A stretch of DNA of 62,183 nt from an uncultured Alphaproteobacteria bacterium (GCA_913053235.1 CAJXFT010000002.1:1-62183), one strand, 5' to 3'. Positions 1 through 23,497 are shown, numbered from the stretch's first letter. Notes: generated by a model from the letters alone, not told the origin. Numbers and translations: made by a program.

Positions 1-1
1 G

Positions 2-190
2 TATCTGCCGCCCTATTCGCCCGACTTCAACCCCATTGAGATGGCCTTCTCCAAGCTCAAGGCCGCCCTGCGAAAAGCCGCCCTGCGCACCAAAGACGAG
101 CTCTGGCAGATCATCGCCGAAGCCATCGACGACTTCACACCCACTCAATGTCAAAATTACTTCACCGCAGCAGGGTATGAACCGGATTAA
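2..190 (+). mobile_element. IS630-family DDE transposase, C-terminal fragment (gene runs off the left edge of the window)
   Basis: Frame 2 reads YLPPYSPDFNPIEMAFSKLKAALRKAALRTKDELWQIIAEAIDDFTPTQCQNYFTAAGYEPD*. The YSPDxNPIE block followed by a K/R-rich helix is the catalytic-Glu region at the C-terminus of IS630/Tc1-mariner transposases. TAA at 188-190. Confidence 0.75.
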
Positions 191-316
191 ATTGAATCTG
201 CTTTAGAAGCGGACATTTTCATTTGAGTTTGTTCGATATGAAGCCGTGCCCGCCACGCGCCAGCGAAAGGCGAATTCTTGCGGCGCGGCGTGACCGGCCT
301 CGGCGTGCGCTGTCGA

Positions 317-1051
317 TTATCCACGCACCTCGGGGCGCTTTGGAGAGCCGACAAATTCGCGGCGGCCGTGCGGTCGGTCGGCGCCGAAATGCTTGAAGGC
401 GATCTCACTGGATTCAGCTATGTGCGCCGCCATCAGCGTTTCGGCGCTGCCGCCGTCACCGGCCTCAATCGCTTTCAAAACCTCGCCATGCTGTCGCCAG
501 CCACGCTTCAACTGCGTGGCCGGGTATTTGTAGCGCGAGCGGTGTGTAATGGTCACCGCCAGAACCTGGCGCTCCACCGTCAACAGGAGCTGGCTGCCGG
601 CGGCGACGGCGACGGCCTCGTGGAAGGCGAGGTCGGCCTGAGCCTGATCCTGCGCGGTTCCGGTTTTACCCAGGCGCTGCTGTGCCGCCAGGGCGTCGGC
701 CACCCGGTCGATCTTGATCCGGTCGCCGTTCTCGGCCGCGAGGCGCGCCGAATGCGATTCCAGCAGCCGCCTGAGCGCGTAGATCTGTTTGATGTCGCTC
801 TGCGTGACACGGCTCACGCGGGCGCATTGGTTGGGGATAAGATCGACCAGCCCCTCGCCGCTCAAGGTGAAGAGCGCCTCGCGTATCGGCGTGCGGCTTA
901 CCCGCAGCTCCTCGGCCAGGCGGCGCTCGCGCAACTGCTGGCCGGGGCCGAGGATGCCGGCCAGGATCGCCTTGCGCAGGACATGGGCGATGCCCTCGCT
1001 GGTGCGCACGGCCATCGGGCCGCTAATCAGATCCGCCAACAGGCCGGGCAT
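317..1051 (-). CDS. GntR-family transcriptional regulator (FadR/FCD subfamily)
   Basis: 244-aa ORF. N-terminal GntR winged HTH (RRLAEELRVSRTPIREALFTLSGEGLV) and an all-helical FCD-like C-terminal domain. ATG 1051 is preceded by GGGAG and lies 7 nt after the stop of the HD-domain gene. Confidence 0.85.
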   Translation of the reverse strand: MPGLLADLISGPMAVRTSEGIAHVLRKAILAGILGPGQQLRERRLAEELRVSRTPIREALFTLSGEGLVDLIPNQCARVSRVTQSDIKQIYALRRLLESHSARLAAENGDRIKIDRVADALAAQQRLGKTGTAQDQAQADLAFHEAVAVAAGSQLLLTVERQVLAVTITHRSRYKYPATQLKRGWRQHGEVLKAIEAGDGGSAETLMAAHIAESSEIAFKHFGADRPHGRREFVGSPKRPEVRG

Positions 1052-1058
1052 TGAACGG

Positions 1059-1724
1059 TTACTCCCTGGCTAGGCCGAGCAACAGGCTTCGGCTGCTCGC
1101 GATCTCGCGCTGGCACTTCACATCGATGTCGGTGTCGTGCGCGGATTCGAGCGCTTGCAGGGCGCTCTCGAAAAGCGGAAGTGCGGCGGTCAGCGCCAGC
1201 GAGGGGCGGATGCGCTCGACGCTGTAATCGAGCTTCTCTCTCGCCTGTTCCACTGTGTAACGCCCGCTGCGCACCCACTCGACGGTGAGCCAATCCGAGG
1301 TTTCGAGGAAGGACAGGGAATCGGCCGCCTGCACGAAATCGGCCTCCCAGTTGCCGCCGATCTCATGCCTGAGGACGAGCCGGCGGACGCGCCGGATGTA
1401 ACCTTCATCCGGCGCCGGCGAGCGCTCGCACAACCATTTCTCGACGATGTCGGCGGAGCGGATCGAATGGGCGAAAAGGTAATCGGGGTCGTCAAAACCG
1501 TCGCTCGGCGTGCTCGTCGGGCCGCCGGGGAAATGCCGCTCGGCATCGTGCACCAGCGTCGCCAGCTTGACTTCGGCGGAGGCCTCCGGGCACAGCTTCA
1601 TCACCCACATCCGGGCGCATAGCAGATGTTCGAGCTGATAGAAGCCGTCCAGCCATTCGACGGCATCCGCCTCGATCGGCGAAAGGCCCGCATTGGCATA
1701 GCGCCCGGCGGCGGCGCTACCCAT
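1059..1724 (-). CDS. HD-superfamily metal-dependent phosphohydrolase-like protein (uncharacterised)
   Basis: ORF 1059-1763. The preferred start ATG at 1724 shares one base with the TGA of the upstream Mo subunit (TGATG on the minus strand). H..HD..H/D pattern (LEHLL, LVHDAERH, LRHEIGG). No closer family recognised. Confidence 0.55.
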   Translation of the reverse strand: MGSAAAGRYANAGLSPIEADAVEWLDGFYQLEHLLCARMWVMKLCPEASAEVKLATLVHDAERHFPGGPTSTPSDGFDDPDYLFAHSIRSADIVEKWLCERSPAPDEGYIRRVRRLVLRHEIGGNWEADFVQAADSLSFLETSDWLTVEWVRSGRYTVEQAREKLDYSVERIRPSLALTAALPLFESALQALESAHDTDIDVKCQREIASSRSLLLGLARE

Positions 1725-4087
1725 CACGGATTCGCCCCCTTGGCGTTCTTCAGAGCGCGCCACACGCTCTCCGGAGTCAATGGCAGTCGGGAGAGTTCGA
1801 CGCCGAACTCAGACAGCGCATCGCACAGCGCGTTGGCCAGCGCAGCCGCCGGCGGGATGGTGCCGACCTCGCCGACGCCGCGCTCGCCGAAACTGGTGAC
1901 CGGAGAGGGAATCTCGCTGTGCAGCAGTTCGATCGGCGGCACATCCGCCGCCGTCGGCATGAAATAGTCGAGCATGCTGCCGCTCACCAGCTGGCCGGTA
2001 TCGGGATCGTAGATCAGGTCCTCGGAGAGCGCCGCGCCCAGCCCCTGCACCAGGCCGCCCAGCACCTGACCCTCGACCAGTAGCGGGTTAACCGCGGTGC
2101 CGCAGTCATGCACCATCACCAAGCGATCGACGCTGAACTCGCCGCTCTCGGGATCGGCCGCAACCACCGCCGCCGCCGTGCCGAAGGAGAAAGCCGCTTC
2201 GTCGGGCGCGTAATGCGCGCTCGCTTCAAGGCCCGGCGTCTCTTCTGGCGGAATGCCCTGGCCGATGATGGCGCGGGTGAAGATATCGCTGAGCGCCAGG
2301 CTGCGCGAGTGGTCGTCGCGCAAGCGTACCACTTGGCCGCTCACCTCCAGCGCCTCGGGCGCCGTCTCAAGCACCCAGGCGGCGATGCGCAAGGCCTTGC
2401 CGCGCAGCTCATCGGCGGCTTCGCGGATCGCCCCGGCGGCGGCGATCAGGGTACGCGAGGCGAAGGCGCCGGTGTTGAGGGGCGACGAGGCGGTGTCGCC
2501 GGCATGGACGTGGATCGATTCGTAATCGACGGCCAAAATCTCGGCGCAGATCTGGGCAAAGGCGGTCTCGCTGCCCTGTCCGAAGGTCGAGACGCCGGTG
2601 TAGAGATCGATGTCACCGGAGCGGTTGGCGCGCAAAGTCACGCTCTCATGGGCGCCGAAAATCGAGCCCCGGTTGGCGAGGAAGCGGGCGCTGGCATAGC
2701 CGGTGCGCTCGACAAAAGAAGCAAAGCCGATCCCCTTCAGGCGGCCATCGCCGTCGGCCCGCCGGGGCGCGGCGCGGTGCGCGGCATAACCGACGGCTTC
2801 GCCGGCCATGCGCAGCGTCTTCACGTAATCGCCGCTGTCATAGACGGCGCCGCTCGGGGTTTTCCACGGCAGATCCTCCGGCCTGAGCATGTTGCGCTCG
2901 CGGAATTCGAGCGCATCGAGCCCAAGCCGGCGCGCCAGCCTGTCGATCAGGACCTCGCGGGCGAAATTGACCTCCGGCTGGCCGTAGCCCCGATAGGCGC
3001 CGATCGGCGTCTTGTTGGTCACGGCGACGCGCCGCTCGGCCACGGCGTCGGCCAGCTTATAGGGTCCGGTGAAGACGACGCTGGAGAGCTGCGCCGAGCC
3101 GAACGAGGAGTTCCAGGCGCCGAGGTCGGTGGTGTAGCGGTTGGTGATGGCGCTGATCTCGCCGTCGGTCCGGGCACCGATGGCAAAGTCGAACACCGCC
3201 TCGCGCGCATGTGTGCTGGCGCGGAAATATTCGAGGCGGTCCTCGATCCACTTGACCGGGCGGCCGAGCGCCATGGCGTGCAGGGCGGCGAGCAGGTCCT
3301 CCGGATAGATTCCCAGCTTCTGGCCGAACCCGCCGCCAACATCGGATGCGGCAACGCGGATGCAGCCCTCGTCGAGGCGTAGCGATTCGGCGAGCTGATG
3401 GCGCAACAGATGCGGCGTCTGGGTCGAGGCGTAAACCGAAAGCTGGCGCGCTCCGGGGCGCCAACGGGCGACGACGCCGCGCCCCTCCATCGCCATCGCA
3501 GTCACGCGGTTGATGCGGAAGCGTTCCCCGACGACTATGTCGGCCTCGGCCATGCGTTCCTCGGGCACGCCGGCGCGGTCCTCGTGACGTGCCAAGAGGT
3601 TGCTGTCCAGCACGCCGGGATGAAGAACCGGCGCATCTTCCGCCAGGGCTTGCAGCGTATCGGTGACATGGGGCAGCGGCTCATAATCGATGTCGATCAA
3701 TTCGAGCGCGTCCTCGGCGAGCGCGCGGCTGGTCGCCACCACGCTCACCACCGGCTGCCCCTCATGGATCGCGCGCTCCCCGGCCAACGCATAATAGGGC
3801 AGCTCCGGCGCGCCGGGCACCGGCCGCAAGACAGTCAGCGGCGCGCTCAGGGCGCGCACATCGGCGCCGGTCAGGATATGTTCGACGCCCGCCAGGGCGA
3901 GGGCAGGGGAGACGTCGAGCCCGCGAATTTCGGCATGCGGGAAGGGGCAGCGGCCGACCGCCATTTCGAGCTGATGCGCCGATTGCACATCGTCGGTGAA
4001 GCAGCCGTCACCGCGCAGCAGCCGGTCGTCCTCCTTGCGCGGCAGCGAGGCGCCGATAAGGCTGCGTTGCGCCGCCACCGCGCTCAT
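1724..4087 (-). CDS. Xanthine-oxidase/CoxL-family molybdopterin-binding large subunit (set 1)
   Basis: 787 aa. N-terminal SLPRKEDDRLLRG, loop GAYRGYGQPE, and C-terminal FGERGVGEVGTIPPAAALANA carrying the family catalytic Glu. Lacks the form-I CODH loop VAYRCSFR. ATGA overlap with the 2Fe-2S subunit at 4084-4087. Confidence 0.9.
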   Translation of the reverse strand: MSAVAAQRSLIGASLPRKEDDRLLRGDGCFTDDVQSAHQLEMAVGRCPFPHAEIRGLDVSPALALAGVEHILTGADVRALSAPLTVLRPVPGAPELPYYALAGERAIHEGQPVVSVVATSRALAEDALELIDIDYEPLPHVTDTLQALAEDAPVLHPGVLDSNLLARHEDRAGVPEERMAEADIVVGERFRINRVTAMAMEGRGVVARWRPGARQLSVYASTQTPHLLRHQLAESLRLDEGCIRVAASDVGGGFGQKLGIYPEDLLAALHAMALGRPVKWIEDRLEYFRASTHAREAVFDFAIGARTDGEISAITNRYTTDLGAWNSSFGSAQLSSVVFTGPYKLADAVAERRVAVTNKTPIGAYRGYGQPEVNFAREVLIDRLARRLGLDALEFRERNMLRPEDLPWKTPSGAVYDSGDYVKTLRMAGEAVGYAAHRAAPRRADGDGRLKGIGFASFVERTGYASARFLANRGSIFGAHESVTLRANRSGDIDLYTGVSTFGQGSETAFAQICAEILAVDYESIHVHAGDTASSPLNTGAFASRTLIAAAGAIREAADELRGKALRIAAWVLETAPEALEVSGQVVRLRDDHSRSLALSDIFTRAIIGQGIPPEETPGLEASAHYAPDEAAFSFGTAAAVVAADPESGEFSVDRLVMVHDCGTAVNPLLVEGQVLGGLVQGLGAALSEDLIYDPDTGQLVSGSMLDYFMPTAADVPPIELLHSEIPSPVTSFGERGVGEVGTIPPAAALANALCDALSEFGVELSRLPLTPESVWRALKNAKGANP

Positions 4088-4569
4088 CCGACGGCCTCGC
4101 CGTCGCCGAGATAATCCTCGACCGCCCGGACGATGCCGTCATAGCCGGTGCAACGGCAGAGAACGCCGCTCAGCTCGCCGCGGATTTCATCGCGCGAGAA
4201 TTTGCGCCCGCTGGATTTAAGGCCGGTCGCCAGCATCAGGAAGCCCGGCGTGCAGAAGCCGCATTGCAGCGCGTGGCGCTTCTTGAAGGCGGCTTGCAAA
4301 TCGCTCAGCCGATCGTCCTCGGCCAGGGATTCGACCGTTCTCACATCGGCGCCTTCCAACTGCATCGCCAGAAGCAGGCAGGATTTGACCGCCTCGCCGT
4401 CGAGCAGGATGGTGCACATGCCGCACACGCCCTGTTCGCAGCCGACATGGGTGCCGGTCAGCCCCAACCGGTGGCGCAGGAAATCGGCCGCATGCATGCG
4501 CGCCGGCGCCTCGGCCGACACCTCCCGCCCGTTTACGCGAAGGCTTATGCTGTGTTCGTTCGAACTCAT
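4084..4569 (-). CDS. (2Fe-2S)-binding small subunit, CoxS-like (set 1)
   Basis: 161 aa. Motifs GCEQGVCGMCTILLDG and QCGFCTPG...CRCTGY indicate two [2Fe-2S] sites typical of Mo-hydroxylase small subunits. Confidence 0.9.
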   Translation of the reverse strand: MSSNEHSISLRVNGREVSAEAPARMHAADFLRHRLGLTGTHVGCEQGVCGMCTILLDGEAVKSCLLLAMQLEGADVRTVESLAEDDRLSDLQAAFKKRHALQCGFCTPGFLMLATGLKSSGRKFSRDEIRGELSGVLCRCTGYDGIVRAVEDYLGDGEAVG

Positions 4570-4584
4570 GCGCGATCCCCGGGC

Positions 4585-5208
4585 CTACATCCGCAACAAA
4601 ATGATCAGGGCAAGGATGGCCGCGGCGGCGCCAAAAAACGCCGCCGCCTTGGCCCATGGGTCGCCTCGCGGCGGTGCTGGAACTTGGGCCGGCATGGCCG
4701 CGGGTTCTCGCTTGGCAGTGGCCGCTCTTTGGGTTTTTTGTTCGACCGGGGCCGTCGCCCCCGCGCCCGACAGCGCGCGCTGCAGATTGCTTGCGAATTC
4801 GGCGGTCACCTTTGCCGCCTGCTTGGTGATTATCGCGTTTCCGACCGTGCCGAGCACGCCGGCCAGCGCCGCCTCGCCTTCGACCACCACATCGGTCTCG
4901 TCGCCGACCGCCGTCAGGGTGACCGAGTTCTGCGTCCGGAAATGGCCGAGCGCGCCGCGTACCGCCTTGCCGGTCGAGGTGAATTCGATGCGCTCCTCAT
5001 GGACGCGCTCGGTGATGCGCACCTTGGCCTCGAAGGTGGCCGACATCGGCCCCAGCTTCTGGGTCGTGCGCACGGAAAGGCAATCATCCTCGAGCAGCTC
5101 GGCCTTCTCGACGCCGGGGATGCAATTCGCCACCTGCAGGGGTTGCTCGAAAAAGAGCCACACTTTGCCGATTTTCTCGGCGACGCGGAACTCCTGGCGG
5201 AATTTCAT
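4585..5208 (-). CDS. CoxG-like SRPBCC protein with a C-terminal hydrophobic tail anchor
   Basis: Start ATG 5208 (MKFRQEFRVAEKIGKVW...), 17 nt after the FAD-subunit stop. CoxG/SRPBCC-like core of about 150 aa, an Ala/Pro-rich linker, and a terminal helix AAAFFGAAAAILALIILLRM. The ORF-track extension to 5373 is rejected. Confidence 0.75.
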   Translation of the reverse strand: MKFRQEFRVAEKIGKVWLFFEQPLQVANCIPGVEKAELLEDDCLSVRTTQKLGPMSATFEAKVRITERVHEERIEFTSTGKAVRGALGHFRTQNSVTLTAVGDETDVVVEGEAALAGVLGTVGNAIITKQAAKVTAEFASNLQRALSGAGATAPVEQKTQRAATAKREPAAMPAQVPAPPRGDPWAKAAAFFGAAAAILALIILLRM

Positions 5209-5224
5209 CTCGCAGCCGAGGCCC

Positions 5225-6088
5225 TTAGCCTTGCGCCGAGAGGCGCAGGTCGCGCAACGCCTTGGCGATGTAGCGCGGCACGAGATGGGCGCGGTATTCC
5301 GCCGAGCCGCGAATATCGCTGGGCGGGTCGATGGCGCCGAGCGCGGCCTCGCCCGCCGCCGCGATATCGGCATCGCTCAGGCTGCTGCCTTCCAAGAGCG
5401 CCATGCTCGCCTCGGCCAGCACCGGCCTGTCATTGACCCCGCCCAGACCGATGCGAAGGCCGTGCCACCCACCGTCGGCGGAAAAATGCCCGGTGGCGGC
5501 CACCGAAAGCACGGCGAAATCATTATGCCGGCGGCACAGCTCGTGGAAGGCGAAATGCGGCGGATGCACCGCAAAGCGGATCTCGGTCAGCAGCTCGTCC
5601 GCCTCCAGCGCGGTCGCATAGGCGCCGTCGTAAAAATCCTCGATGGCGATCATGCGCGCGCCGGCCGGGCCGACGGCATTGATCTCGGCGCCGAGCACGA
5701 GACAGCCGAGCGGCATCTCGCTCGCCGGATCGCCCTGCACCAGGCTGCCGCCGATGGTCCCGCGCCTGCGTATTTGGTGATCGCCGATAAAGCGCACCAT
5801 GGTGGCGAGCAGCGGCAGCCTGGCGGCGATCAGCGGCGACGTCTCCAGGGTGGCGTGGCGGACCAGGGCGCCGAGATGCGTCTCCTCGCCTTGCGCCGTC
5901 ACTTCGGCGAGCTCCGAGAGCGCGTTGATATCGATCAGCGCCGCCGGGCGCCAGAGGCGCATGTTGAGCATCGGCATCAGGCTCTGCCCGCCGGCGAGCA
6001 GGCGCGCCTCGCCATCGTAATCCTCCATATAGCGCAGCGCTTCCGCCACCCCGGTCGCACGGTGATAGATGAAATCGGCGGCCTTCAC
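5225..6088 (-). CDS. FAD-binding medium subunit, CoxM-like (set 1)
   Basis: GTG 6088 overlaps the stop of the upstream gene (GTGA). VKAADFIYHRATGVAEAL...LLAGGQSLMPMLNMRL and IRRRGTIGGSL match the FAD_binding_5/CO_deh_flav_C pattern. Only two Cys residues, so no Fe-S insertion. Confidence 0.85.
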   Translation of the reverse strand: MKAADFIYHRATGVAEALRYMEDYDGEARLLAGGQSLMPMLNMRLWRPAALIDINALSELAEVTAQGEETHLGALVRHATLETSPLIAARLPLLATMVRFIGDHQIRRRGTIGGSLVQGDPASEMPLGCLVLGAEINAVGPAGARMIAIEDFYDGAYATALEADELLTEIRFAVHPPHFAFHELCRRHNDFAVLSVAATGHFSADGGWHGLRIGLGGVNDRPVLAEASMALLEGSSLSDADIAAAGEAALGAIDPPSDIRGSAEYRAHLVPRYIAKALRDLRLSAQG

Positions 6089-7182
6089 GGCTTGTCCTCC
6101 CAGGATGGCGTCGTCGCCACGCGGACACCCGAAAGACGCTGAAGCACGTGATCGATCGGCGATTTTGCCTTCGACATCTGGCCCTTGTTTTGGCGCTGGC
6201 TCCACACCGTCTCGGGGCGAACCTGGAGCACCGATATGGCGCCCTTTTCGTCGACCGCCCATTCGATGTCCTGCGCCCCGCCGCGCCGTTCCTCGATATG
6301 TTTGGCCAGCCTCGCCAGTTCCAGCGCTTCCGCGTCGGTGATGCAGACGGCGTCGCGCCGCTCAGGCTCGACCGGCAACAGAGCGACGGCGCCGGTGGCA
6401 GGATCGAAGCGATACTCCTCCGGCTGCGCGGCGGCATCCTTCTTGATGATTTCGAAGGTGACCTTGTCGATGGTGAAGCGGTCCGGCGTCACGTCGCCCT
6501 TGACCACGCCCTCGCCGAGGCCCCAACAACCCTCCATGACGATCTTGGAGCGGTCGCCGTTGAGCGGGTCGAGGGTGAACATCACGCCGGCGGCGCGCGC
6601 CTCGACCATCTGCTGGATGCCGACGCAGATCGCGGCGTCCGCCACGGTTGCAGCGTCCGCCCCTTCATGGCGATAGGAAAGCACGGCCTCGCCGAACATG
6701 CTGGCCCAGCAGCCCCGCATGTCGCGCAGCACCGCTTCGGTGCCGGAGATCCAGAGATAGGTGTCGTATTGGCCGGCGAAGCTGGCCCCGGCGAGATCTT
6801 CCGATTCGCCGCTCGAGCGAACCGCGACCGGCACGCCGTCCCGGCCCGTCTTCTCTTCCAGAGCGGCGTAATTGCTTCGCACCGCCTCTTCGAGGTCGCC
6901 CGGCAGCGCCGCCGATTGGATGCCCTTCACCAGATCGGCGGTAAGCTCTTTAATCTTGGACAAATCCGTGGATTTCGCCGCCTGGCGCACGCGCGCGGCC
7001 TCCGTTTCCAGCCCCGTACGGCTCATGAAATGGCGATAGGCGGCGGTGGTGACGCCGAAACCCGCCGGTACGGCGAAGCCGGCGGCCATCATCTCGGCGA
7101 GATTGGCGAACTTGCCGCCGAGCAGGGCGTTGCCCGGCGCGCCATCCTGGTCGAGCCACAGGATGAAGGGATCCGCGGTCAT
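6085..7182 (-). CDS. PEP-synthase/PPDK N-terminal ATP-grasp domain protein (phenylphosphate synthase beta, PpsB-like)
   Basis: 365 aa. Motifs GGKFANLAEM, VAVRSSGESEDLAGASFAGQYDTYL and GVMFTLDPLNGDRSKIVMEGCWGLGEGVVKGDVTPD are canonical PPDK_N nucleotide-binding motifs. ATGA overlap with the upstream gene at 7179-7182. Confidence 0.8.
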   Translation of the reverse strand: MTADPFILWLDQDGAPGNALLGGKFANLAEMMAAGFAVPAGFGVTTAAYRHFMSRTGLETEAARVRQAAKSTDLSKIKELTADLVKGIQSAALPGDLEEAVRSNYAALEEKTGRDGVPVAVRSSGESEDLAGASFAGQYDTYLWISGTEAVLRDMRGCWASMFGEAVLSYRHEGADAATVADAAICVGIQQMVEARAAGVMFTLDPLNGDRSKIVMEGCWGLGEGVVKGDVTPDRFTIDKVTFEIIKKDAAAQPEEYRFDPATGAVALLPVEPERRDAVCITDAEALELARLAKHIEERRGGAQDIEWAVDEKGAISVLQVRPETVWSQRQNKGQMSKAKSPIDHVLQRLSGVRVATTPSWEDKP

Positions 7183-9053
7183 GCGGCGGCTCTCTCCACC
7201 ACCCGCACCATGCCCTCATTGCCGTCGACTTCGATGACATCGCCGGTCTTGATCGTCGCCGTGGCGAAACCGACGCCGACGACGGCGGGCAGCCCGTATT
7301 CGCGCGAGATGATCGCCGTGTGCGCCATCATGCCGCCGACGTCGGAGACCGCCGCGGCGATGCGCGAGAATACCGGCGCCCAGCTCGGCGCGGTGATCCG
7401 GCAGACCAGGATTTCACCATCCTCGACCTCGAACAGATCCTCGTAATTGGTGACGATACGCGCCCGCCCCGACGCCTTTCCGCCCGCCGCGGGAACGCCG
7501 CGCAGCGCGTCGCCCGCGGCGTCGGGATCGACGCCGAGCCATTCCTCGACGGTCTCGGCGGTGATGCCCCACAGCATGATGGTGAGCGGCTCGGTAATGA
7601 TCGAGGGCGGCGTTCCCAGGGCCGGCGGCGGCACCCACTTGGCCAGCACATCGCGGATTTGCCGCCGCCGCTTGACGATCGGCCGCCAGTAGATCTCGCC
7701 GCGCGACTGGCTGCCGGTGGCCCAGCCGATGATCAGATCGTAAAGCGCGTCATAGACCTCGTGACGATGCAGGTAGAATAAATCCTCGCGGTCGTCGATG
7801 AAGTTGTGGGCGACGAACACATCGGCAAGCTCGCGCACTTTCGACCAGAAGGTCGTGTGGTGCCAATGCTCGACGAAGAAATTGTGATCCTCGACAAAGG
7901 GAAAAACCTTCCAGTTGAGCGCCAGCAGGCCGTCGAAAGCCTCGCGGTCCTGGTCCGTCGGCAGCAACCCGCGATATTCTTCCGTCACCTGGCGGCGCTT
8001 CTCGAGCAGGCTTTCAAGCGGGCGGCTGATATCCTCGCCGCGGCCGAGCGCCTCGACATAGCCGCGCATCGCCATCAGCGGCAGGCGCAAATCGTCGATC
8101 CACACCGGATCGGAATGGGTATAGCCGACGCCGGTGGAGAAGTGGAACCAGGGCTCCTTCGCCGCCTCGAAGGCATCCAGCCATTTGCTACCGCCTTCGG
8201 CCTTGGCCATGGCCGCCAGCATCGCGTCCGGATCGTCATGGCCGGTGACGATATCGGCGAGCTTCAACTCGACCGCCAGTTCGGCCAGCTTGCGCAGCTC
8301 GTCGTCCGGCCGCATCAACATGTTATCGACGCCGCATACCATTTGCGTCAGCGTGCGGTCGGTTACGCCGGGAAACGCCTGCTGGCAGAACTCGCGGAAG
8401 GTCAGATAGGCGCCGTAGCCGAGATTTAGCATCTCAAAATGGTAGGAGCCCATCTCCAGCATGTTCTCGATCAGCCGGTTATATGTGCTGAGCAGATCGT
8501 GCGAGGAATAGACGCCGCGATGGCTGAAGACATTCTCCTCCGGGTCGAGCTCCGGAAGCGGATGGAACTCGATCTCTTTCAAGCGTGCGATGCAGTCCCT
8601 CGCCTTTTCCTCCCAATTGACATAGATCTCGTCCCAATTCTCGAAATAGTGACCGGCGCGGCGGGTGAAATGCTCATTTCGCTCGGCGATTTTTTCGGGA
8701 TCGGTGACGCCGTTCGGGCTGATATAGATGTAGCCGTTGACGAGGCGGTGATCGATCCCCATGGCCACCGGTATGGGCCACACCCGGCTCGCCATCTGGC
8801 TCGCCGCCACCCACCAGTTCTCGGTCATGATGGTATCGAACGGATAGAGCGGCTCCGGGTTGTGCATGCCATCGAAGAACCAGAACTTGCCGTCCTCCAT
8901 CTCCTGCCGCTCGGCGCTGAACAGATAATAATATGGATAAAGCTCTTCCCAGCCCTCGGCCCCTTCGGGCGTCGGCAGCTTGAACGGGCTTGGGAAGCGC
9001 TCATTCGCCTCCCCCGTCTGCTGCATCGCATCGCTGCCAGACTTTTCGGTCAT
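7179..9053 (-). CDS. PEP-utilising swivel-His domain protein (phenylphosphate synthase alpha, PpsA-like)
   Basis: 624 aa. Large N-terminal domain of unknown specificity plus a C-terminal mobile domain with the phospho-His motif GGMMAHTAIISREYGLPAVVGVG. No PEP/pyruvate-binding TIM-barrel domain follows. Size and architecture match the ~70 kDa subunit of phenylphosphate synthase. Confidence 0.75.
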   Translation of the reverse strand: MTEKSGSDAMQQTGEANERFPSPFKLPTPEGAEGWEELYPYYYLFSAERQEMEDGKFWFFDGMHNPEPLYPFDTIMTENWWVAASQMASRVWPIPVAMGIDHRLVNGYIYISPNGVTDPEKIAERNEHFTRRAGHYFENWDEIYVNWEEKARDCIARLKEIEFHPLPELDPEENVFSHRGVYSSHDLLSTYNRLIENMLEMGSYHFEMLNLGYGAYLTFREFCQQAFPGVTDRTLTQMVCGVDNMLMRPDDELRKLAELAVELKLADIVTGHDDPDAMLAAMAKAEGGSKWLDAFEAAKEPWFHFSTGVGYTHSDPVWIDDLRLPLMAMRGYVEALGRGEDISRPLESLLEKRRQVTEEYRGLLPTDQDREAFDGLLALNWKVFPFVEDHNFFVEHWHHTTFWSKVRELADVFVAHNFIDDREDLFYLHRHEVYDALYDLIIGWATGSQSRGEIYWRPIVKRRRQIRDVLAKWVPPPALGTPPSIITEPLTIMLWGITAETVEEWLGVDPDAAGDALRGVPAAGGKASGRARIVTNYEDLFEVEDGEILVCRITAPSWAPVFSRIAAAVSDVGGMMAHTAIISREYGLPAVVGVGFATATIKTGDVIEVDGNEGMVRVVERAAA

Positions 9054-9067
9054 GCTCGAGCACCTCG

Positions 9068-9120
9068 CCCTTTGTTTTGCGCTTTGTTTTACGCTTTGTT
9101 TTGCTCTGTGGTTTGCGCTT
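9068..9120. repeat. 12-bp tandem direct repeat (CGCTTTGTTTTG, 3 good plus 1-2 degenerate units) in the leader of the ppsA-like gene
   Basis: Read directly: ccctttgttttg cgctttgtttta cgctttgttttg ctctgtggtttg cgctt. On the mRNA strand this gives GCAAAACAAAGCGUAAAACAAAGCGCAAAACAAAGGG, immediately 5' of the SD-like GGCGAGGUG and the ATG at 9053. Confidence 0.6.
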
Positions 9121-9163
9121 GATCGCGAATCGGCTTTCGAGTTTAACCGGCTCTTTTAAGATT

Positions 9164-9179
9164 GTATACCAGTATACCA
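9164..9179. promoter_or_regulatory. Candidate GntR-type operator: tandem GTATACCA GTATACCA (two GTATAC palindromes)
   Basis: Lies in the 358-bp divergent intergenic region between the ppsA-like gene and the LLM gene. GT-N-AC palindromes are the generic GntR-family operator core, and a GntR gene closes the minus-strand operon. Confidence 0.35.
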
Positions 9180-9411
9180 TTCATCTATGATGCGACATGT
9201 TGCCTGCGCACGGATTGATTCGCTGTGGATCGATTCGATCCGCTGCAATAGGATATTAAAAAACGGGCCCCGGATGCGGGGCTGGAATCAATAGCCCTAA
9301 AAGGCGGGGGCACCGCCGGGGTTCAAGGGAGAGCTTTCCGATCGTATTGCCGGCGGTTGAGGATATCGCGGGCGGCGCTGCGGACGGGTCTCGGAACAGG
9401 AGCGTGACGCG

Positions 9412-10425
9412 ATGAAATCCAGCCTCGTCTATTCAATGCACGGCTTCGAGTATAACGATCCCCATCGCACCTTCCGGGAGACCGTCGAGCAGATTCAATT
9501 GGCCGAGGCTCTGGGCTTCGACGCCGCCCTGATCACCGAGCACCACGTCGTCGAGACCGGCTATTTCCCGGCGCCGTTGATAACCTGCGCCGCACTGGCG
9601 ACGGAGACCTCGCGGATTCGCCTCGGCACCGGGGTGCTGCTGCTGCCGCTTCACGATCCGCTCCACGTCGCCGAGCACACGGCGATGCTGGACATCGTTT
9701 CGAACGGCCGCTTCATCCTCGGCCTCGGCTATGGCTACCGGCAGGAGGAGTTCGACGCGTTCGGGATTTCGCTCGACGAGCGCGCCTCGCGGCTGAACGA
9801 GGGCATCCGGGCGATCCGCGCGCTGTGGACCGAGGAAGTGACCAATTTCGACGGCAAGCATTTCAAATATAACAATGTTACCCAGCGCCCGCTGCCGTTA
9901 CAGAAACCCCATCCGCCGATCTGGCTGGCCTCCAAGGCGGAAGGCGCGGTGCGCCAGGCGGCGCGCAATTCCGATGCCTGGTTCGCCGATCCGATAACGC
10001 CGTTCTCGGTGCTCAAGCTGCGCCTCGCCGCCTACAAGGAGACCCTGGCCGAACTCGGCAAGCCGACCAGCGGCTTCGATTTTCCGATCTTCCGCGAGGC
10101 CTATGTCGCCGACACGGACGAGCAGGCCTGGGAGGAGGCCAGGGAAGGCGTGCTCTTTATCTATAAGGAATATCTCGAATGGGGCCATCTCCTGGACGAG
10201 GACGGCCGGCCGGTCAAGCCGGATACGCCAAACGCCCTTGATCTGGTGCGCCAGCGCTTCCTCATCGGCAGCCCGGAAACCTGTATCCGCCAGGCTCTCA
10301 AGGTCAAGGAGGAGCTTGGCTGCACCAACGTCGTGATGCGCATGAAATACCCGGGCATATCGCAGGACAAGGTCATGAAATCGATCAGGCTGTGGGGCGA
10401 GCAGGTGCTCCCGGCGATCGCCTGA
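9412..10425 (+). CDS. LLM-class (luciferase-like) flavin-dependent oxidoreductase (paralog 1)
   Basis: 337 aa. AGGAG lies 8 nt upstream of the ATG. TIM-barrel LLM pattern: QLAEALGFDAALITEHH, IRLGTGVLLLPLHDPLHVAE, GRFILGLGYGYRQEEF, HPPIWLASK. Confidence 0.85.
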   Translation: MKSSLVYSMHGFEYNDPHRTFRETVEQIQLAEALGFDAALITEHHVVETGYFPAPLITCAALATETSRIRLGTGVLLLPLHDPLHVAEHTAMLDIVSNGRFILGLGYGYRQEEFDAFGISLDERASRLNEGIRAIRALWTEEVTNFDGKHFKYNNVTQRPLPLQKPHPPIWLASKAEGAVRQAARNSDAWFADPITPFSVLKLRLAAYKETLAELGKPTSGFDFPIFREAYVADTDEQAWEEAREGVLFIYKEYLEWGHLLDEDGRPVKPDTPNALDLVRQRFLIGSPETCIRQALKVKEELGCTNVVMRMKYPGISQDKVMKSIRLWGEQVLPAIA

Positions 10426-10435
10426 GACAGAGACG

Positions 10436-11365
10436 ATGGCCGACAGCGGCCGGGCGATCTTCAAAACCACCGAGAGCGTGCGCGCGGCGTTCGCCGAACA
10501 TAACTATATCGCCGACCGGGCGCTGGCGCTGACCGTCATGCTCGGCGCCGAGCTGGAAAAGCCGATCCTTCTCGAAGGCGAGGCCGGGGTCGGCAAGACC
10601 GATGTCGCCAAGGTGCTGGCCGGCGCTCTCGACACGCCGCTGATCCGCCTGCAATGCTATGAAGGGCTCGACGCCGGCACGACGATCTATGAGTGGAACT
10701 ATTCGCGCCAGATCCTGCAGATCCGCATGGCCGAGCAGGACGCGGCGCTGAAAAGCGCGCTTCAGACATCGATCTTCAGCGACGAGTTTCTGCTCAGCCG
10801 GCCGCTGCTCCAGGCCATCCGCCACCCCGGGCCGCGCCCGGCGGTGCTGCTGATCGACGAGATCGACCGCGCCGACGAGGAGTTCGAGGCCTTTCTGCTC
10901 GAGATTTTGTCGGACTTCCAGGTGACGGTGCCCGAGATCGGAACGCTGACGGCGGTGCAGCGCCCGCTCGTCGTGCTGACCTCGAACCGCACGCGCGAGC
11001 TCAACGACGCGCTCAAGCGGCGTTGCCTCTATCTCTGGATCGATTATCCGACGCCGGAGAAGGAGCGCGAGATCGTCCTCCGCCATGTGCCGGACATCGA
11101 AGCGGGACTGGCCGAGCAGATCTGCGCCGTCATGCGGACCCTGCGCCAGGTCGATTTCTACAAGCGCCCGGGCGTCGCCGAGACGCTGGATTGGGCGCGC
11201 GCGCTGCTGCGCCTCGATGCGCGCGCGCTCGAACCCGATCTGCTGCGCGACACCGCCGGTTGCGTGCTCAAATATCATGACGATATCGAGCGCCTCGGCG
11301 CCATCGGCGCCGACAAGGTACTCGCCGGAGAAGTCGGTGACGAAGGCGTCGCCGAGCAGATTTGA
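10436..11365 (+). CDS. MoxR-like AAA+ ATPase (CoxD-like)
   Basis: 309 aa. Walker A LLEGEAGVGKTD and Walker B VLLIDEIDRADEEFEAFLLEIL. Typical MoxR length, and sits next to a VWA protein. Confidence 0.85.
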   Translation: MADSGRAIFKTTESVRAAFAEHNYIADRALALTVMLGAELEKPILLEGEAGVGKTDVAKVLAGALDTPLIRLQCYEGLDAGTTIYEWNYSRQILQIRMAEQDAALKSALQTSIFSDEFLLSRPLLQAIRHPGPRPAVLLIDEIDRADEEFEAFLLEILSDFQVTVPEIGTLTAVQRPLVVLTSNRTRELNDALKRRCLYLWIDYPTPEKEREIVLRHVPDIEAGLAEQICAVMRTLRQVDFYKRPGVAETLDWARALLRLDARALEPDLLRDTAGCVLKYHDDIERLGAIGADKVLAGEVGDEGVAEQI

Positions 11366-11371
11366 AATGAC

Positions 11372-12517: not shown

Positions 12518-12547
12518 AGAAACGAAAGCAATGGAGGTAGAGGGACA

Positions 12548-14929: not shown

Positions 14930-15783
14930 TTTCCCAGGAGTTCGATTTCGAGGCGCCGAGCGCCTTGCCCGAGGCGCTGGCGCTGCTCGCCCGCCACGGC
15001 GACGACGCCACTTTGCTTTCCGGCGGCATGAGCCTGATGCCGATGACGACGCTGGGGCTGGTGCAGCCGGGCATGATCATCAGCCTCAACCATATCGCCG
15101 AGCTCGATTATGTGCGCGAAGACGGCAATGAGCTTCGCATCGGCGCGCTGACGCGCCATGCCGACGTCGCCGCCGACCCGCTGATCGGCGCCCATGCGGC
15201 GCTCCTGGCCGAGGCCGCTTCATTGATCGGCGACGTTCAGGTGCGCAACCGGGGCACCATCGGCGGCAGCATCGCGCATGCCGATCCGGCGGCCAATTAT
15301 TTGCCTGCGATGCTCGCTCTCGGCGCCCGGCTCAGGCTTCAGAGCGAGGCCGGCGAGCGCAGCGTCGAGGCGAAGGATTTCGTCAAGGGAATCATGACGA
15401 CGGCCATCGAAACCGGCGAAATGCTCACCGAGATCGCCATTCCCAAGCTCGCCGCCGGCACCGGCTGCTCCTATCAACGGCTGGTGCGGGTCGAGGGCAA
15501 CTTCGCCATCGTCATCGCCGCCGCCATCACCGAGCCCGGCCGAAAGGCGGCGCGGGTGGGGCTCGGCAATGTCGCTCCCGGGCCGGTGCTGGTCGATGTC
15601 AGCGGCCATCTCGGCAACGGCCTCGACGATGCGGCGTTGGCGGCGATCGGCGATGCCGCCTTCGATGCCGCCGCGGAGGCCGCCAGCGACCTCGCCGGCG
15701 ACGCCAATTATCGCCGCGAGATGGCGCGCGTGTTCGCCCGCCGCGCGGTGCAAAGCGCCACCGATGCAGCCGACGCCGGCTAG
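14926..15783 (+). CDS. FAD-binding medium subunit, CoxM-like (set 2)
   Basis: 285 aa. LLSGGMSLMPMTTLGL, VRNRGTIGGSIAHADPAAN, and C-terminal DLAGDANYRREMARV. Confidence 0.85.
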   Translation: MISQEFDFEAPSALPEALALLARHGDDATLLSGGMSLMPMTTLGLVQPGMIISLNHIAELDYVREDGNELRIGALTRHADVAADPLIGAHAALLAEAASLIGDVQVRNRGTIGGSIAHADPAANYLPAMLALGARLRLQSEAGERSVEAKDFVKGIMTTAIETGEMLTEIAIPKLAAGTGCSYQRLVRVEGNFAIVIAAAITEPGRKAARVGLGNVAPGPVLVDVSGHLGNGLDDAALAAIGDAAFDAAAEAASDLAGDANYRREMARVFARRAVQSATDAADAG

Positions 15784-15806
15784 CCAGAGCGCAAAGGATA
15801 GAGACA

Positions 15807-22841: not shown

Positions 22842-23497
<656 letters not shown>

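What the first reader, a model, noticed from the sequence alone, without database searches (positions are those of the whole stretch)
1059..9053. Split PEP-synthase-type kinase (PpsA/PpsB-like) translationally coupled to a molybdenum hydroxylase, tail-anchored CoxG and an HD phosphohydrolase
Seen in sequence:
- Seven minus-strand genes run from 9053 to 1059, and a GntR gene follows 7 nt later.
- They are chained by start/stop overlaps: ATGA at 7179-7182, GTGA at 6085-6088, ATGA at 4084-4087, TGATG at 1722-1726.
- The first two genes form a split phosphotransferase. One is a 624-aa protein ending in the swivel phospho-His motif GGMMAHTAIISREYGLPAVVG. The other is a 365-aa ATP-grasp PPDK_N protein (GGKFANLAEM, VAVRSSGESEDL..SFAGQYDTYL).

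Established knowledge:
- This two-protein architecture and size (~70 + ~40 kDa) is that of phenylphosphate synthase PpsA/PpsB of Thauera aromatica.
- Rifampicin phosphotransferase is the fused version.

What differs here:
- The window has no PpsC-like protein, no UbiD/UbiX-type phenylphosphate carboxylase and no CoA ligase.
- Instead the kinase is co-translated with FAD, CoxG, 2Fe-2S and Mo subunits of a xanthine-oxidase-family hydroxylase, and with an HD-superfamily hydrolase.

Inference: this may be a route in which a hydroxyl or lactam oxygen is ATP-activated as a phosphoester, and the HD protein later removes or turns over the phosphate. That oxygen could be installed by the water-dependent Mo hydroxylase or already be present on the substrate. 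I know of no characterised pathway with this gene combination.
Basis: partly seen in the sequence, partly recalled or inferred. Interest (0 to 1): 0.8.

Follow-up and report, generated by a model that had tools for sequence, protein, structure and literature searches.

The report
3-hydroxypyridine dehydrogenase operon with kinase
This eight-gene operon matches a gene cluster published in 2020 that bacteria use to start breaking down 3-hydroxypyridine; that cluster pairs a molybdenum enzyme with an ATP-driven kinase, so the gene combination is known, but why the kinase is needed is still unexplained.

Summary
Eight minus-strand genes (9053 to 317) are chained by start/stop overlaps and carry the stated domains.

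In content and order it is the core of the 3hpd cluster of Ensifer adhaerens HP1 (Wang et al. 2020): orf10 (swivel-His protein), orf9 (ATP-grasp), hpdA4/A3/A2/A1 (FAD, tail-anchored SRPBCC, 2Fe-2S, Mo), orf8 and orf7 (GntR).

That study showed two things:
- hpdA1-4 convert 3-hydroxypyridine to 2,5-dihydroxypyridine only when orf9/orf10 are present.
- Orthologous clusters occur in 38 strains, several of which are among my retrieved loci.

My survey of 76 loci gave these results:
- 42 carry the Mo subunit beside the kinase.
- 40 of those also carry orf8.
- 21 have a 2,5-dihydroxypyridine dioxygenase (NicX) within the retrieved DNA, often inside the operon.

The window itself has no maleamate-pathway genes.

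The "HD" protein misses Pfam HD. It does have an invariant H..HD..H..HE..D pattern, and its model matches HD-domain structures.

The likely mechanism, inferred by analogy with the Hpe pathway, is:
1. Phosphorylate the 3-OH.
2. Hydroxylate the phosphoester.
3. Dephosphorylate with Orf8.

The system is already known. Its mechanism remains open and testable.

The parts
9163..9179 (-). Putative operator for the GntR/FCD regulator: TGGTATACTGGTATACA, two overlapping copies of a TGGTATAC(C)A palindrome, about 110-125 nt upstream of the start of gene A
   Evidence: - Sequence read.
- The same palindrome lies upstream of A in 11 other loci, mostly those with an adjacent GntR orthologue.
- GTATAC background is 0.048 per kb.
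- Function is inferred.
7179..9053 (-). Dikinase large component (Orf10/PpsA/HpeH-like, 624 aa): N-terminal helical small-molecule-binding domain plus C-terminal swivel domain with catalytic His578 (GGMMAH)
   Evidence: - PF00391 at residues 544-614 only.
- NCBIfam NF006153, 796 bits over the full length.
- AF2 model has pLDDT 75.5.
- Foldseek best hits are rifampin phosphotransferase, E 1e-16, 619 columns.
- His578 is invariant in 36 homologues.
6085..7182 (-). Dikinase ATP-grasp component (Orf9/PpsB/HpeI-like, 365 aa); start overlaps the stop of A (ATGA)
   Evidence: - PF01326, E 1.5e-92.
- Best solved relative is 9GOJ (HpeI), E 1.1e-62.
5225..6088 (-). HpdA4-like FAD-binding subunit of the Mo hydroxylase (287 aa, GTG start overlapping the stop of B)
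   Evidence: - PF00941 and PF03450.
- Junction read.
4585..5208 (-). HpdA3-like separate SRPBCC/CoxG subunit (207 aa) with a Pro/Ala-rich linker and a C-terminal transmembrane helix; probable quinone shuttle and membrane tether
   Evidence: - PF06240.
- Hydrophobic tail from residue 187.
- CoxG function comes from PMC12202499.
4084..4569 (-). HpdA2-like 2x[2Fe-2S] subunit (161 aa)
   Evidence: PF01799 and PF00111.
1724..4087 (-). HpdA1-like molybdopterin subunit (787 aa); catalytic Glu740, Gln223; active-site loop AYRGYGQ, not the CO-dehydrogenase loop
   Evidence: - PF01315, PF02738 and PF20256.
- Best solved relative is quinoline 2-oxidoreductase 1T3Q_B, E 4e-144, with Glu743 and Gln224 aligned.
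1059..1724 (-). Orf8-like protein (221 aa), all-helical HD-superfamily fold; candidate aryl-phosphate phosphohydrolase. Its ATG shares one base with the stop of the Mo subunit.
   Evidence: - Invariant H33, H59-D60, H86, H120-E121 and D135 in 32 homologues.
- AF2 model has pLDDT 89.6.
- Top PDB fold hits are all HD-domain proteins: YpgQ, Lin1889, 2PQ7.
- DUF4202 hits 31 of 32 family members and HD hits 23 of 32, all weakly.
- Present in 40 of 42 loci that carry the Mo subunit.
317..1051 (-). Orf7-like GntR/FCD transcriptional regulator (244 aa), 7 nt after orf8
   Evidence: - PF00392 and PF07729.
- Orthologues are adjacent in many loci.

Best explanation
**What it is.** The operon is an orthologue of the core of the published 3-hydroxypyridine (3HP) catabolic cluster 3hpd. 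Its gene order is orf10-orf9-hpdA4-hpdA3-hpdA2-hpdA1-orf8-orf7.

**Shown elsewhere, in E. adhaerens HP1.**
- The four-subunit Mo dehydrogenase converts 3HP to 2,5-dihydroxypyridine only when the two kinase genes are present.
- Deleting either kinase gene abolishes growth on 3HP.

**Inferred mechanism.**
1. The ATP-grasp protein B loads His578 of A. A then transfers phosphate to the 3-OH of 3HP, giving AMP, Pi and pyridin-3-yl phosphate.
2. The Mo enzyme hydroxylates the phosphoester at C6 with oxygen from water. Electrons pass through the two 2Fe-2S clusters to FAD and then to quinone, which the membrane-tethered CoxG-like subunit delivers.
3. The HD-fold Orf8 hydrolyses the phosphate and releases 2,5-dihydroxypyridine. 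This enters the maleamate pathway, which must be encoded outside this window.

**Chemical rationale (my inference).** A free 3-OH or 3-O(-) donates electrons to C6 and disfavours nucleophilic attack by Mo-OH. Masking it as a phosphate ester removes that effect and also traps the substrate in the cell.

**Regulation.** The GntR regulator probably controls the operon through the TGGTATAC repeat upstream of A.

**Confidence.** About 0.9 that this is a 3hpd-type module, and about 0.5 for the three-step phospho-masking mechanism.
For: **Orthology**
- The domain content and gene order are the same as published.
- Loci L017, L019, L022, L026 and L031 are strains or contigs listed as 3hpd hosts in the paper's Fig. 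8 and Table S1. They share 68-71% (A) and 65-73% (Mo subunit) identity with the window.
- The paper's gene order for contig NZ_LQIT01000038 matches my labels one to one, including orf8.
- A proteins that sit next to the Mo enzyme form one clade. The window nests inside it, beside NicX-linked L005.

**Product**
- A gene matching 2,5-dihydroxypyridine dioxygenase (PDB 7CN3, E 3e-88) lies in 21 of 42 loci.
- It often sits between the CoxG and FeS genes, with NicD-, NicE- and NicF-like genes.

**Kinase acts on a small molecule**
- The model of A matches rifampin phosphotransferase, including its substrate-binding domain.
- B is closest to HpeI.

**Precedent for the cycle**
- In the Hpe pathway, HpeCBA acts only on the phosphorylated substrate.
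- HpeD then removes the phosphate and prefers the transformed product.

**Orf8**
- It has an HD-type motif and fold.
- It is present in 40 of 42 loci.
- Its identity to the window tracks that of A across loci (rho 0.86).
- It is absent next to A/B paralogues that lack the Mo enzyme.

**CoxG role**: PMC12202499.
Against: - Wang et al. detected no product other than 2,5-dihydroxypyridine.
- Their host carrying hpdA1-4 plus orf9-orf10 but not orf7-orf8 still made 2,5-dihydroxypyridine. Orf8 is therefore not essential there, unless host phosphatases substitute.
- Phosphorylation of 3HP by this kinase has never been shown.
- Orf8 has no significant sequence match to any solved HD protein. HD folds also include non-phosphatases, such as cyanamide hydratase.
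- The window has no NicX, NicD, NicE or NicF homologue in 62 kb, so its substrate and product are not confirmed by context.
- I could not compare directly with the HP1 protein sequences.
Confidence: 0.6

Rival explanations
1. Same module, different role for the kinase. It does not make the hydroxylase's substrate. It could instead trap or scavenge 3HP in the cell, or activate the HpdA complex, for example by phosphorylating a subunit or cofactor. Under this view HpdA acts on free 3HP.
For: - No phospho-intermediate was seen by Wang et al..
- Dexter et al. propose scavenging or trapping as the reason for phenol dikinases.
- The orf8-less construct still gives 2,5-dihydroxypyridine.
Against: - HpdA1-4 alone were inactive in the heterologous host. 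Trapping alone does not explain this.
- A has a rifampin-phosphotransferase-like small-molecule-binding domain.
- All characterised two-component relatives phosphorylate small phenols, and in Hpe the next enzyme needs the phosphoester.
- Orf8 is tightly conserved with the module.
Confidence: 0.15
2. This window's subclade acts on a different hydroxylated N-heteroaromatic rather than 3HP, and feeds a pathway other than maleamate.
For: - No NicX, NicD, NicE or NicF homologue occurs in the 62-kb window.
- Most of the closest loci also lack one within 10 kb: L002-L004, L006-L008, L010, L011, L013, L020, L033, L041, L045 and L053.
- The window is packed with other Mo-hydroxylase sets.
- Close relatives are flanked by hydantoinase, diiron monooxygenase and deacetylase genes.
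Against: - L005 (81% A identity) sits inside the same subclade and L009 (76%) in the neighbouring alphaproteobacterial branch with L014 and L015; both carry NicX within the operon.
- All eight proteins are 54-73% identical to those of a catalogued 3hpd member (L017).
- Catabolic genes are often unlinked.
Confidence: 0.15
3. Orf8 is not the pathway phosphatase. It could be an HD-fold enzyme of another chemistry (a hydratase, or an oxygenase-like activity), a regulator of the dikinase, or a maturation factor for the Mo enzyme.
For: - Orf8 has no threshold-level HD hit.
- Cyanamide hydratase is among the fold hits.
- Orf8 is dispensable in the heterologous host.
- No XdhC-like chaperone gene lies in the operon.
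Against: - The invariant H..HD..H..HE..D pattern is typical of metal-dependent HD phosphohydrolases.
- The best fold hits are phosphohydrolases such as YpgQ.
- Orf8 accompanies only those kinase pairs that sit with the Mo enzyme.
Confidence: 0.3
4. A phenylphosphate-synthase-type anaerobic phenol pathway, or a bona fide PEP synthase/PPDK, that merely neighbours an unrelated Mo hydroxylase.
For: - A and B resemble PpsA and PpsB in size and domains.
Against: - No PpsC, UbiD/UbiX carboxylase or CoA ligase is in the window.
- A has no PEP/pyruvate-binding domain.
- Start/stop overlaps join the kinase genes to the hydroxylase genes.
- Synteny holds across four bacterial classes.
- The genetic dependence is published.
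Confidence: 0.02

Closest known systems
3hpd cluster of Ensifer adhaerens HP1: HpdA1A2A3A4 with Orf7-Orf10 (Wang et al. 2020, bioRxiv 10.1101/2020.01.08.898148)
   Same: - It has the same eight genes, in the order implied by the paper's constructs and Table S1.
- It has a separate tail-anchored SRPBCC subunit.
- The kinase pair adjoins hpdA4.
- orf8 and a GntR gene follow hpdA1.
- The window's proteins are 54-73% identical to those of L017, a strain the paper lists as a 3hpd host.
   Different: - The window lacks the adjacent maleamate genes hpdBCDE and the ABC transporter arrangement described for HP1.
- It comes from an uncultured alphaproteobacterial MAG.
- I could not measure identity to the HP1 proteins themselves.
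Hpe pathway of Rhodococcus rhodochrous GD02: HpeHI kinase, HpeCBA carboxylase, HpeD phosphatase (PMC9618137, PMC12167813)
   Same: - It has a two-component dikinase of the same family.
- It follows a phosphorylate, transform, dephosphorylate logic.
- The middle enzyme accepts only the phosphoester.
   Different: - The middle enzyme is a biotin carboxylase, not a Mo hydroxylase.
- The phosphatase is NagD-like by its closest characterised homologue, not HD.
- The substrates are hydroxyphenylethanones.
Phenylphosphate synthase PpsAB(C) of Thauera aromatica, and CreHI of Corynebacterium glutamicum
   Same: - The architecture is split into components of about 70 and 40 kDa.
- The large component carries a swivel His.
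- Both phosphorylate a phenolic OH.
   Different: - The window has no PpsC and no UbiD-type carboxylase.
- The context is aerobic and quinone-linked.
- A forms a separate clade tied to the Mo enzyme.
Rifampin phosphotransferase RPH (PDB 5FBS, 5FBT, 5FBU, 5HV1)
   Same: - The fold of A matches the RIF-binding and swivel domains.
- B matches the ATP-grasp domain.
   Different: - RPH is a single fused chain that acts on an antibiotic.
- Sequence identity is about 16%.
Quinoline 2-oxidoreductase QorL (PDB 1T3Q) and the Mo-CODH/CoxG quinone-shuttle system (PMC12202499)
   Same: - QorL is the closest solved relative of the Mo subunit, and the catalytic Glu and Gln are conserved.
- CoxG has the same architecture: SRPBCC domain, linker and C-terminal helix.
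   Different: - The Trp331 loop of Qor is deleted.
- 57 positions are invariant in the clade but differ in the paralogues, including R210, H270, R289, R352, H437, H480 and R489.
- The active-site loop is not that of CO dehydrogenase.

Membership tests
3hpd core module (HpdA1-4 + Orf9/Orf10 + Orf8 + Orf7) | Gene content and order: orf10-orf9-hpdA4-hpdA3-hpdA2-hpdA1-orf8-orf7 | tested here: met
   They match the description and Table S1 of Wang et al..
3hpd core module (HpdA1-4 + Orf9/Orf10 + Orf8 + Orf7) | Orthology to members catalogued in the paper | tested here: met
   - L017, L019, L022, L026 and L031 are strains or contigs named in the paper.
- Identity to the window is 68-71% for A and 65-73% for the Mo subunit.
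- The window nests in the Mo-linked A clade.
3hpd core module (HpdA1-4 + Orf9/Orf10 + Orf8 + Orf7) | Separate SRPBCC subunit with a transmembrane segment | tested here: met
   PF06240 on a 207-aa protein with a C-terminal hydrophobic helix from residue 187.
3hpd core module (HpdA1-4 + Orf9/Orf10 + Orf8 + Orf7) | Linked maleamate-pathway genes hpdBCDE (NicX/D/F/E-like) | tested here: not met
   No homologue occurs anywhere in the 62-kb window. They are present in 21 of 42 related loci.
3hpd core module (HpdA1-4 + Orf9/Orf10 + Orf8 + Orf7) | Kinase-dependent conversion of 3-hydroxypyridine to 2,5-dihydroxypyridine | not testable with these tools
   Shown only for E. adhaerens HP1.
Two-component small-molecule dikinase (PpsAB/CreHI/HpeHI; RPH-like) | Separate ATP-grasp component of about 40 kDa | tested here: met
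   PF01326, E 1.5e-92. Best PDB hit is HpeI, 9GOJ.
Two-component small-molecule dikinase (PpsAB/CreHI/HpeHI; RPH-like) | Component of about 70 kDa with a C-terminal swivel domain and a catalytic His within about 50 residues of the C terminus | tested here: met
   PF00391 at residues 544-614. His578 of 624 is invariant.
Two-component small-molecule dikinase (PpsAB/CreHI/HpeHI; RPH-like) | Helical substrate-binding domain like the RIF-binding domain, in place of a PEP/pyruvate barrel | tested here: met
   Foldseek gives RPH at E 1e-16 over 619 columns. PPDK and PEPS match only through the swivel domain, TM about 0.15.
Two-component small-molecule dikinase (PpsAB/CreHI/HpeHI; RPH-like) | ATP to AMP + Pi + phosphorylated phenolic product | not testable with these tools
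   This needs an enzyme assay.
Phenylphosphate synthase / anaerobic phenol pathway | PpsC and a UbiD/UbiX-type phenylphosphate carboxylase nearby | tested here: not met
   None among the ORFs surveyed across the window.
PEP synthase / PPDK | C-terminal PEP/pyruvate-binding domain (PF02896) | tested here: not met
   A has only PF00391 and B only PF01326. Scores are far below the NCBIfam PEP-synthase cut-offs.
Xanthine-oxidase-family Mo hydroxylase (Qor-like, non-CODH) | L/M/S subunit domains with the catalytic Glu and the Mo-site Gln | tested here: met
   E740 and Q223 align with Qor E743 and Q224.
Aerobic CO dehydrogenase | Active-site loop AYRCSFR with the Cu-binding Cys (motif recalled from memory) | tested here: not met
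   The window has AYRGYGQ. NCBIfam CODH scores are below the cut-off.
HD-superfamily metal-dependent phosphohydrolase | Significant match to the HD domain profile (PF01966) | tested here: not met
   - The window protein gives no hit.
- 23 of 32 family members give weak hits, best E 7e-4, and 31 of 32 hit DUF4202 weakly.
- There is no PDB sequence or profile hit.
HD-superfamily metal-dependent phosphohydrolase | H..HD..D metal-binding motif and HD fold | tested here: met
   - Invariant H33, H59-D60, H86, H120-E121 and D135.
- Model pLDDT is 89.6.
- The five best fold hits, and most of the rest, are HD-domain proteins, with TM 0.54-0.65 and best E 3.6e-3.
HD-superfamily metal-dependent phosphohydrolase | Phosphoester hydrolysis | not testable with these tools
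   This needs an enzyme assay.
CoxG-type membrane-tethered quinone shuttle | SRPBCC domain, flexible linker and C-terminal membrane helix, encoded with the XO-family subunits | tested here: met
   The architecture is as described in PMC12202499. Quinone binding was not tested.

The most novel reading that the evidence does not exclude
The Mo hydroxylase's true substrate is a phosphate ester (pyridin-3-yl phosphate). ATP-dependent masking of an electron-donating hydroxyl would then be what lets a xanthine-oxidase-family enzyme hydroxylate an otherwise deactivated ring. Orf8 would be a previously unassigned HD-fold (DUF4202-related) aryl-phosphate phosphatase that closes the cycle. As far as the literature I could search shows, this would be the first Mo hydroxylase shown to act on a phosphorylated substrate.
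Probability: 0.5. Interest if true: 0.6.

Novelty: already known. Interest (0 to 1): 0.35.

Why it matters
The gene combination is a published, genetically validated module for the first step of 3-hydroxypyridine degradation, so this window adds one more orthologue, from an uncultured alphaproteobacterium.

What remains interesting is the unanswered question in that paper: why does a molybdenum hydroxylase need an ATP-dependent dikinase? Evidence gathered here points to a phosphorylate, hydroxylate, dephosphorylate cycle:
- The large kinase component has a small-molecule-binding fold.
- An HD-fold Orf8 is conserved in 40 of 42 clusters.
- NicX is embedded inside many of the operons.
- The Hpe pathway provides a precedent.

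This cycle can be tested with three purified components. If it is correct, it extends the "phospho-masked phenol" strategy from carboxylases and P450s to molybdenum hydroxylases, and it assigns a function to a DUF4202-like family.

Tried and rejected
- **Pfam, NCBIfam and PDB sequence or profile searches for the 221-aa protein.** No significant HD hit. Only the fold search and family-wide weak hits were informative.
- **HP1 sequences.** tblastn of A against PLSDB plasmids found only paralogues below 48% identity, and no 3hpd plasmid. HP1 did not appear by name among the best 120 homologues. Direct identity to HP1 is therefore unmeasured.
- **Promoter and terminator scan of 1-9800.**
  - No sigma-70-like site was found.
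  - Ten of the 11 terminator-like hairpins fall inside ORFs and the other lies in the A-LLM intergenic region; none sits at a gene junction, and the count is not clearly above the shuffled expectation (11 against 6.5 ± 2.9).
  - This gives no evidence for internal terminators, but the test is weak.
- **Rfam scan of the whole window.** Nothing was found, including no Moco riboswitch.
- **Phosphate-binding residues in the Mo subunit.** I found seven clade-specific invariant basic residues.
- **Literature searches for a follow-up explaining the kinase, or for pyridyl-phosphate intermediates.** None was found in the held library. The Cre pathway paper (PMC4813557) is not held.
- **My simple GC3-based gene caller.** It wrongly preferred an antisense 664-aa ORF (4148-6142, + strand) over the FAD, CoxG and FeS genes. 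Pfam and public gene calls settle the minus-strand genes.

Full report
**1. Observation**

The region holds eight co-directional minus-strand genes.

| Gene | Coordinates | Length | Pfam or other evidence |
|---|---|---|---|
| A | 7179-9053 | 624 aa | PF00391 at residues 544-614 only |
| B | 6085-7182 | 365 aa | PF01326 |
| FAD subunit | 5225-6088 | 287 aa | GTG start; PF00941, PF03450 |
| CoxG/SRPBCC | 4585-5208 | 207 aa | PF06240 |
| 2Fe-2S subunit | 4084-4569 | 161 aa | PF01799, PF00111 |
| Mo subunit | 1724-4087 | 787 aa | PF01315, PF02738, PF20256 |
| 221-aa protein | 1059-1724 | 221 aa | sub-threshold DUF4202 only |
| GntR/FCD regulator | 317-1051 | 244 aa | PF00392, PF07729 |

- The quoted peptide motifs are present. 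The catalytic His is His578.
- The CoxG-like protein ends in a hydrophobic helix that starts at residue 187.
- Public gene calls on four contigs that encode the identical A protein give the same genes. The source is an uncultured-bacterium MAG: GCA_030745155.1, GCA_030746645.1, JGI 3300035205.
- The one point that fails as stated is the profile check for HD. The 221-aa protein does not hit PF01966 and gives only a sub-threshold DUF4202 match.

**2. Is the association more than chance?**

A scan of one genome per species returned 76 loci that encode relatives of A. I labelled them by tblastn with the window's proteins.

- Every locus with A at 67% identity or more, and enough flanking DNA, carries B, FAD, CoxG, FeS, the Mo subunit and the 221-aa protein.
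- In Alpha-, Beta- and Gammaproteobacteria the order is the same as in the window.
- Mycobacteria and other Actinobacteria (A at 52-68%) keep the same set in a rearranged order.
- In all, 42 loci have the Mo-subunit orthologue, and 40 of these have the 221-aa protein. The two exceptions are contigs cut within about 2 kb.
- A relatives below 50%, and three loci at 53-54% (L034, L042, L064), have only B beside them.
- In a neighbour-joining tree, the Mo-linked A proteins form one clade and the window nests inside it.
- Identities of B, the Mo subunit and the 221-aa protein to the window track that of A across loci (Spearman 0.91, 0.93 and 0.86).
- The B and FAD alignments abut in exactly the pattern of a 4-nt overlap in 11 of 34 loci.

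**3. What it is**

The arrangement is the core of the 3hpd cluster of Ensifer adhaerens HP1 (Wang et al. 2020, bioRxiv 10.1101/2020.01.08.898148).

- The paper describes hpdA1 (Mo), hpdA2 (2Fe-2S), hpdA3 (separate SRPBCC with a predicted transmembrane segment) and hpdA4 (FAD).
- These are flanked by orf9 ("pyruvate-phosphate dikinase") and orf10 ("PEP-utilizing protein mobile subunit") on one side, and by orf8 and orf7 (GntR) on the other.
- hpdA1-4 alone did not convert 3-hydroxypyridine in a heterologous host. hpdA1-4 plus orf9-orf10 did, giving 2,5-dihydroxypyridine. hpdA1-4 plus orf7-orf8 did not.
- orf9 and orf10 mutants lost growth on 3-hydroxypyridine.
- The authors state that the function of orf9/orf10 "remain[s] to be clarified".
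- Their Fig. 8 and Table S1 list orthologous clusters in 38 strains. These include several of my loci:
  - Salinicola peritrichatus JCM 18795 (L017)
  - strain R4HLG17 (L019)
  - Starkeya/Ancylobacter novella S2 (L022)
  - Pusillimonas caeni KCTC 42353 (L026)
  - Mycobacterium sp. GA-2829, contig NZ_LQIT01000038 (L031)
- For L031, the paper's locus-tag order is orf7, hpdD, orf10, orf9, A4, A3, orf8, hpdC, hpdB, A2, A1, hpdE. This matches my labels gene for gene, so the window's 221-aa protein is the orf8 orthologue.
- The window's proteins are 54-73% identical to those of L017 and 46-68% to those of L031. For A and the Mo subunit this is the range the paper reports between HP1 and these strains.
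- I could not obtain the HP1 sequences themselves.

**4. Product**

- In many related loci, a 343-aa gene sits between the CoxG and FeS genes. It matches 2,5-dihydroxypyridine 5,6-dioxygenase NicX (PDB 7CN3, E 3e-88).
- It is accompanied by an alpha/beta hydrolase (NicD-like), a maleate-isomerase-like protein and an isochorismatase-type amidase.
- In Limibacillus halophilus one uninterrupted run of genes reads: kinase A, B, FAD, CoxG, isomerase, hydrolase, NicX, FeS, Mo, Orf8.
- 21 of 42 loci have NicX within the retrieved DNA.
- This ties the family to 2,5-dihydroxypyridine as the product.
- The window has none of these four genes in 62 kb, and most of its nearest relatives also lack them nearby. 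The exceptions are L005, inside the same subclade, and L009 in the neighbouring branch.

**5. The parts**

*Kinase*
- A has no PEP/pyruvate-binding domain.
- It belongs to the unnamed NCBIfam PRK08296 group (796 bits).
- Its AlphaFold model (pLDDT 75.5) aligns with rifampin phosphotransferase over about 619 columns (E 1e-16). It aligns with PPDK and PEP synthase only through the swivel domain. Dexter et al. report the same relation for HpeH.
- The closest solved relative of B is HpeI, 9GOJ.
- A/B is therefore a two-component small-molecule dikinase of the PpsAB/CreHI/HpeHI kind.

*Mo subunit*
- It is closest to quinoline 2-oxidoreductase (1T3Q, E 4e-144). The catalytic Glu (E740) and Gln223 are conserved.
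- The Trp331 loop of Qor is deleted, and the active-site loop is not the CO-dehydrogenase type.
- 57 positions are invariant in the orthologue clade and differ in seven paralogues. They include R210, H270, R289, R352, H437, H480 and R489. I could not determine their position relative to the active site.

*CoxG-like subunit*
- It has the SRPBCC, linker and C-terminal-helix architecture shown for mycobacterial CoxG.
- That protein extracts menaquinone from the membrane and delivers it to the FAD site (PMC12202499).

*Orf8*
- 394 homologues were found, almost all unnamed.
- H33, H59-D60, H86, H120-E121 and D135 are invariant.
- The model is confident and all-helical (pLDDT 89.6).
- The five best PDB fold matches, and most of the others, are HD-domain proteins: YpgQ, Lin1889, 2PQ7 and BH2835, plus the non-phosphatase Ddi2. 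TM scores are 0.54-0.65 and the best E-value is 3.6e-3.
- Across the family, 31 of 32 members weakly hit DUF4202 and 23 of 32 weakly hit HD.

**6. Mechanism**

*Shown, in HP1*
- The reaction is 3-hydroxypyridine to 2,5-dihydroxypyridine.
- It needs all four Hpd subunits and both kinase genes.

*Inferred*
1. The kinase phosphorylates the 3-OH.
2. The Mo enzyme hydroxylates the phosphoester at C6. Electrons leave through FeS, FAD and CoxG-delivered quinone.
3. Orf8 removes the phosphate.

*Precedent*
- The closest validated precedent is the Hpe pathway.
- There, HpeCBA carboxylates only the phosphorylated substrates.
- The phosphatase HpeD strongly prefers the carboxylated product (PMC9618137).

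*Chemical rationale*
- Masking an electron-donating oxygen para to the carbon under nucleophilic attack is my inference.

*Against*
- No intermediate was detected by Wang et al.
- Their orf8-less construct still produced 2,5-dihydroxypyridine. Host phosphatases could explain the latter.

**7. Regulation**

- About 110-125 nt upstream of A lies TGGTATACTGGTATACA (9163-9179).
- The palindrome TGGTATACCA, often doubled, lies upstream of A in 11 other loci, mainly those with an adjacent GntR orthologue. The GTATAC background is 0.048 per kb.
- It is probably the operator of the Orf7-like regulator.
- No internal terminators stand out, and there are no Rfam matches.

**8. Comparison and verdict**

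- The novelty claim does not hold. The gene combination, its distribution and the kinase dependence were published in 2020.
- I found no later paper in the held library that explains the kinase.
- This analysis adds four things:
  - fold-level assignments for A (rifampin-phosphotransferase-like) and for Orf8 (HD fold);
  - quantitative conservation of Orf8 with the module;
  - a candidate operator;
  - the observation that this window and most of its closest relatives lack linked maleamate genes.
- Novelty is "already known". Interest is moderate to low for the window itself, with a testable open mechanistic question attached.

Noticed in passing
window 9163-9179 (minus strand): TGGTATACTGGTATACA lies upstream of gene A. 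The same GntR-type palindrome (TGGTATACCA, often doubled) is found upstream of A in 11 other loci, mainly those with an adjacent GntR orthologue. It is a likely operator.
   Followed up: partly
window 9412-20045 and 25278-29222 (+ strand): The neighbourhood holds three further xanthine-oxidase-family gene sets. One run reads: luciferase-like monooxygenase, CoxD-type AAA, CoxE-type VWA, then L-M-S and a second L-M-S. A separate M (25278-26279) and L (26688-29222) follow. It looks like a catabolic island for N-heterocycles, substrates unknown.
   Followed up: partly
window 20091-24332 (+ strand): A DMSO-reductase-type molybdopterin oxidoreductase (916 aa) is followed by a 4Fe-4S dicluster protein and an NrfD-like membrane subunit. 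This is a three-subunit complex of unknown substrate, sitting between the hydroxylase sets.
   Followed up: no
window 29421-36282 (+ strand): A sugar-type ABC transporter (binding protein, ATPase, permease) is followed by a 783-aa protein similar to the N,N-dimethylformamidase beta subunit, and then by small unannotated ORFs.
   Followed up: no
window 4148-6142 (+ strand): A 664-aa ORF runs antisense to the FAD, CoxG and FeS genes. It is a high-GC artefact. My simple GC3-based caller wrongly chose it over the real genes.
   Followed up: yes
L082 13866-14372 (closest clade): In a close relative (A 81% identical) the CoxG-like gene is only 168 aa and overlaps the FeS gene, so it may lack the C-terminal membrane helix seen in the window's 207-aa protein. 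The same locus is flanked by hydantoinase A/B, a polysaccharide-deacetylase-like gene and an IS1595 transposase rather than maleamate genes.
   Followed up: no
window ~1-190 (left edge); L078 18864-19067: Public contigs with the same operon carry a short DDE_3 transposase fragment just beyond the GntR gene. This echoes the mobile-element remnants that flank 3hpd in E. adhaerens HP1.
   Followed up: no
window 52936-56142 (minus strand): A 1068-aa hybrid histidine kinase (GAF, HisKA, HATPase, two receiver domains, Hpt) lies in the lowest-GC stretch of the window, about 0.56-0.59.
   Followed up: no
window 9267-9282 (minus strand): A GC-rich hairpin followed by a T run (GCCCCGCATCCGGGGC CCGTTTTTT) lies in the intergenic region between the divergent LLM gene and gene A. 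It resembles a terminator, but there is no upstream minus-strand gene for it to terminate.
   Followed up: no
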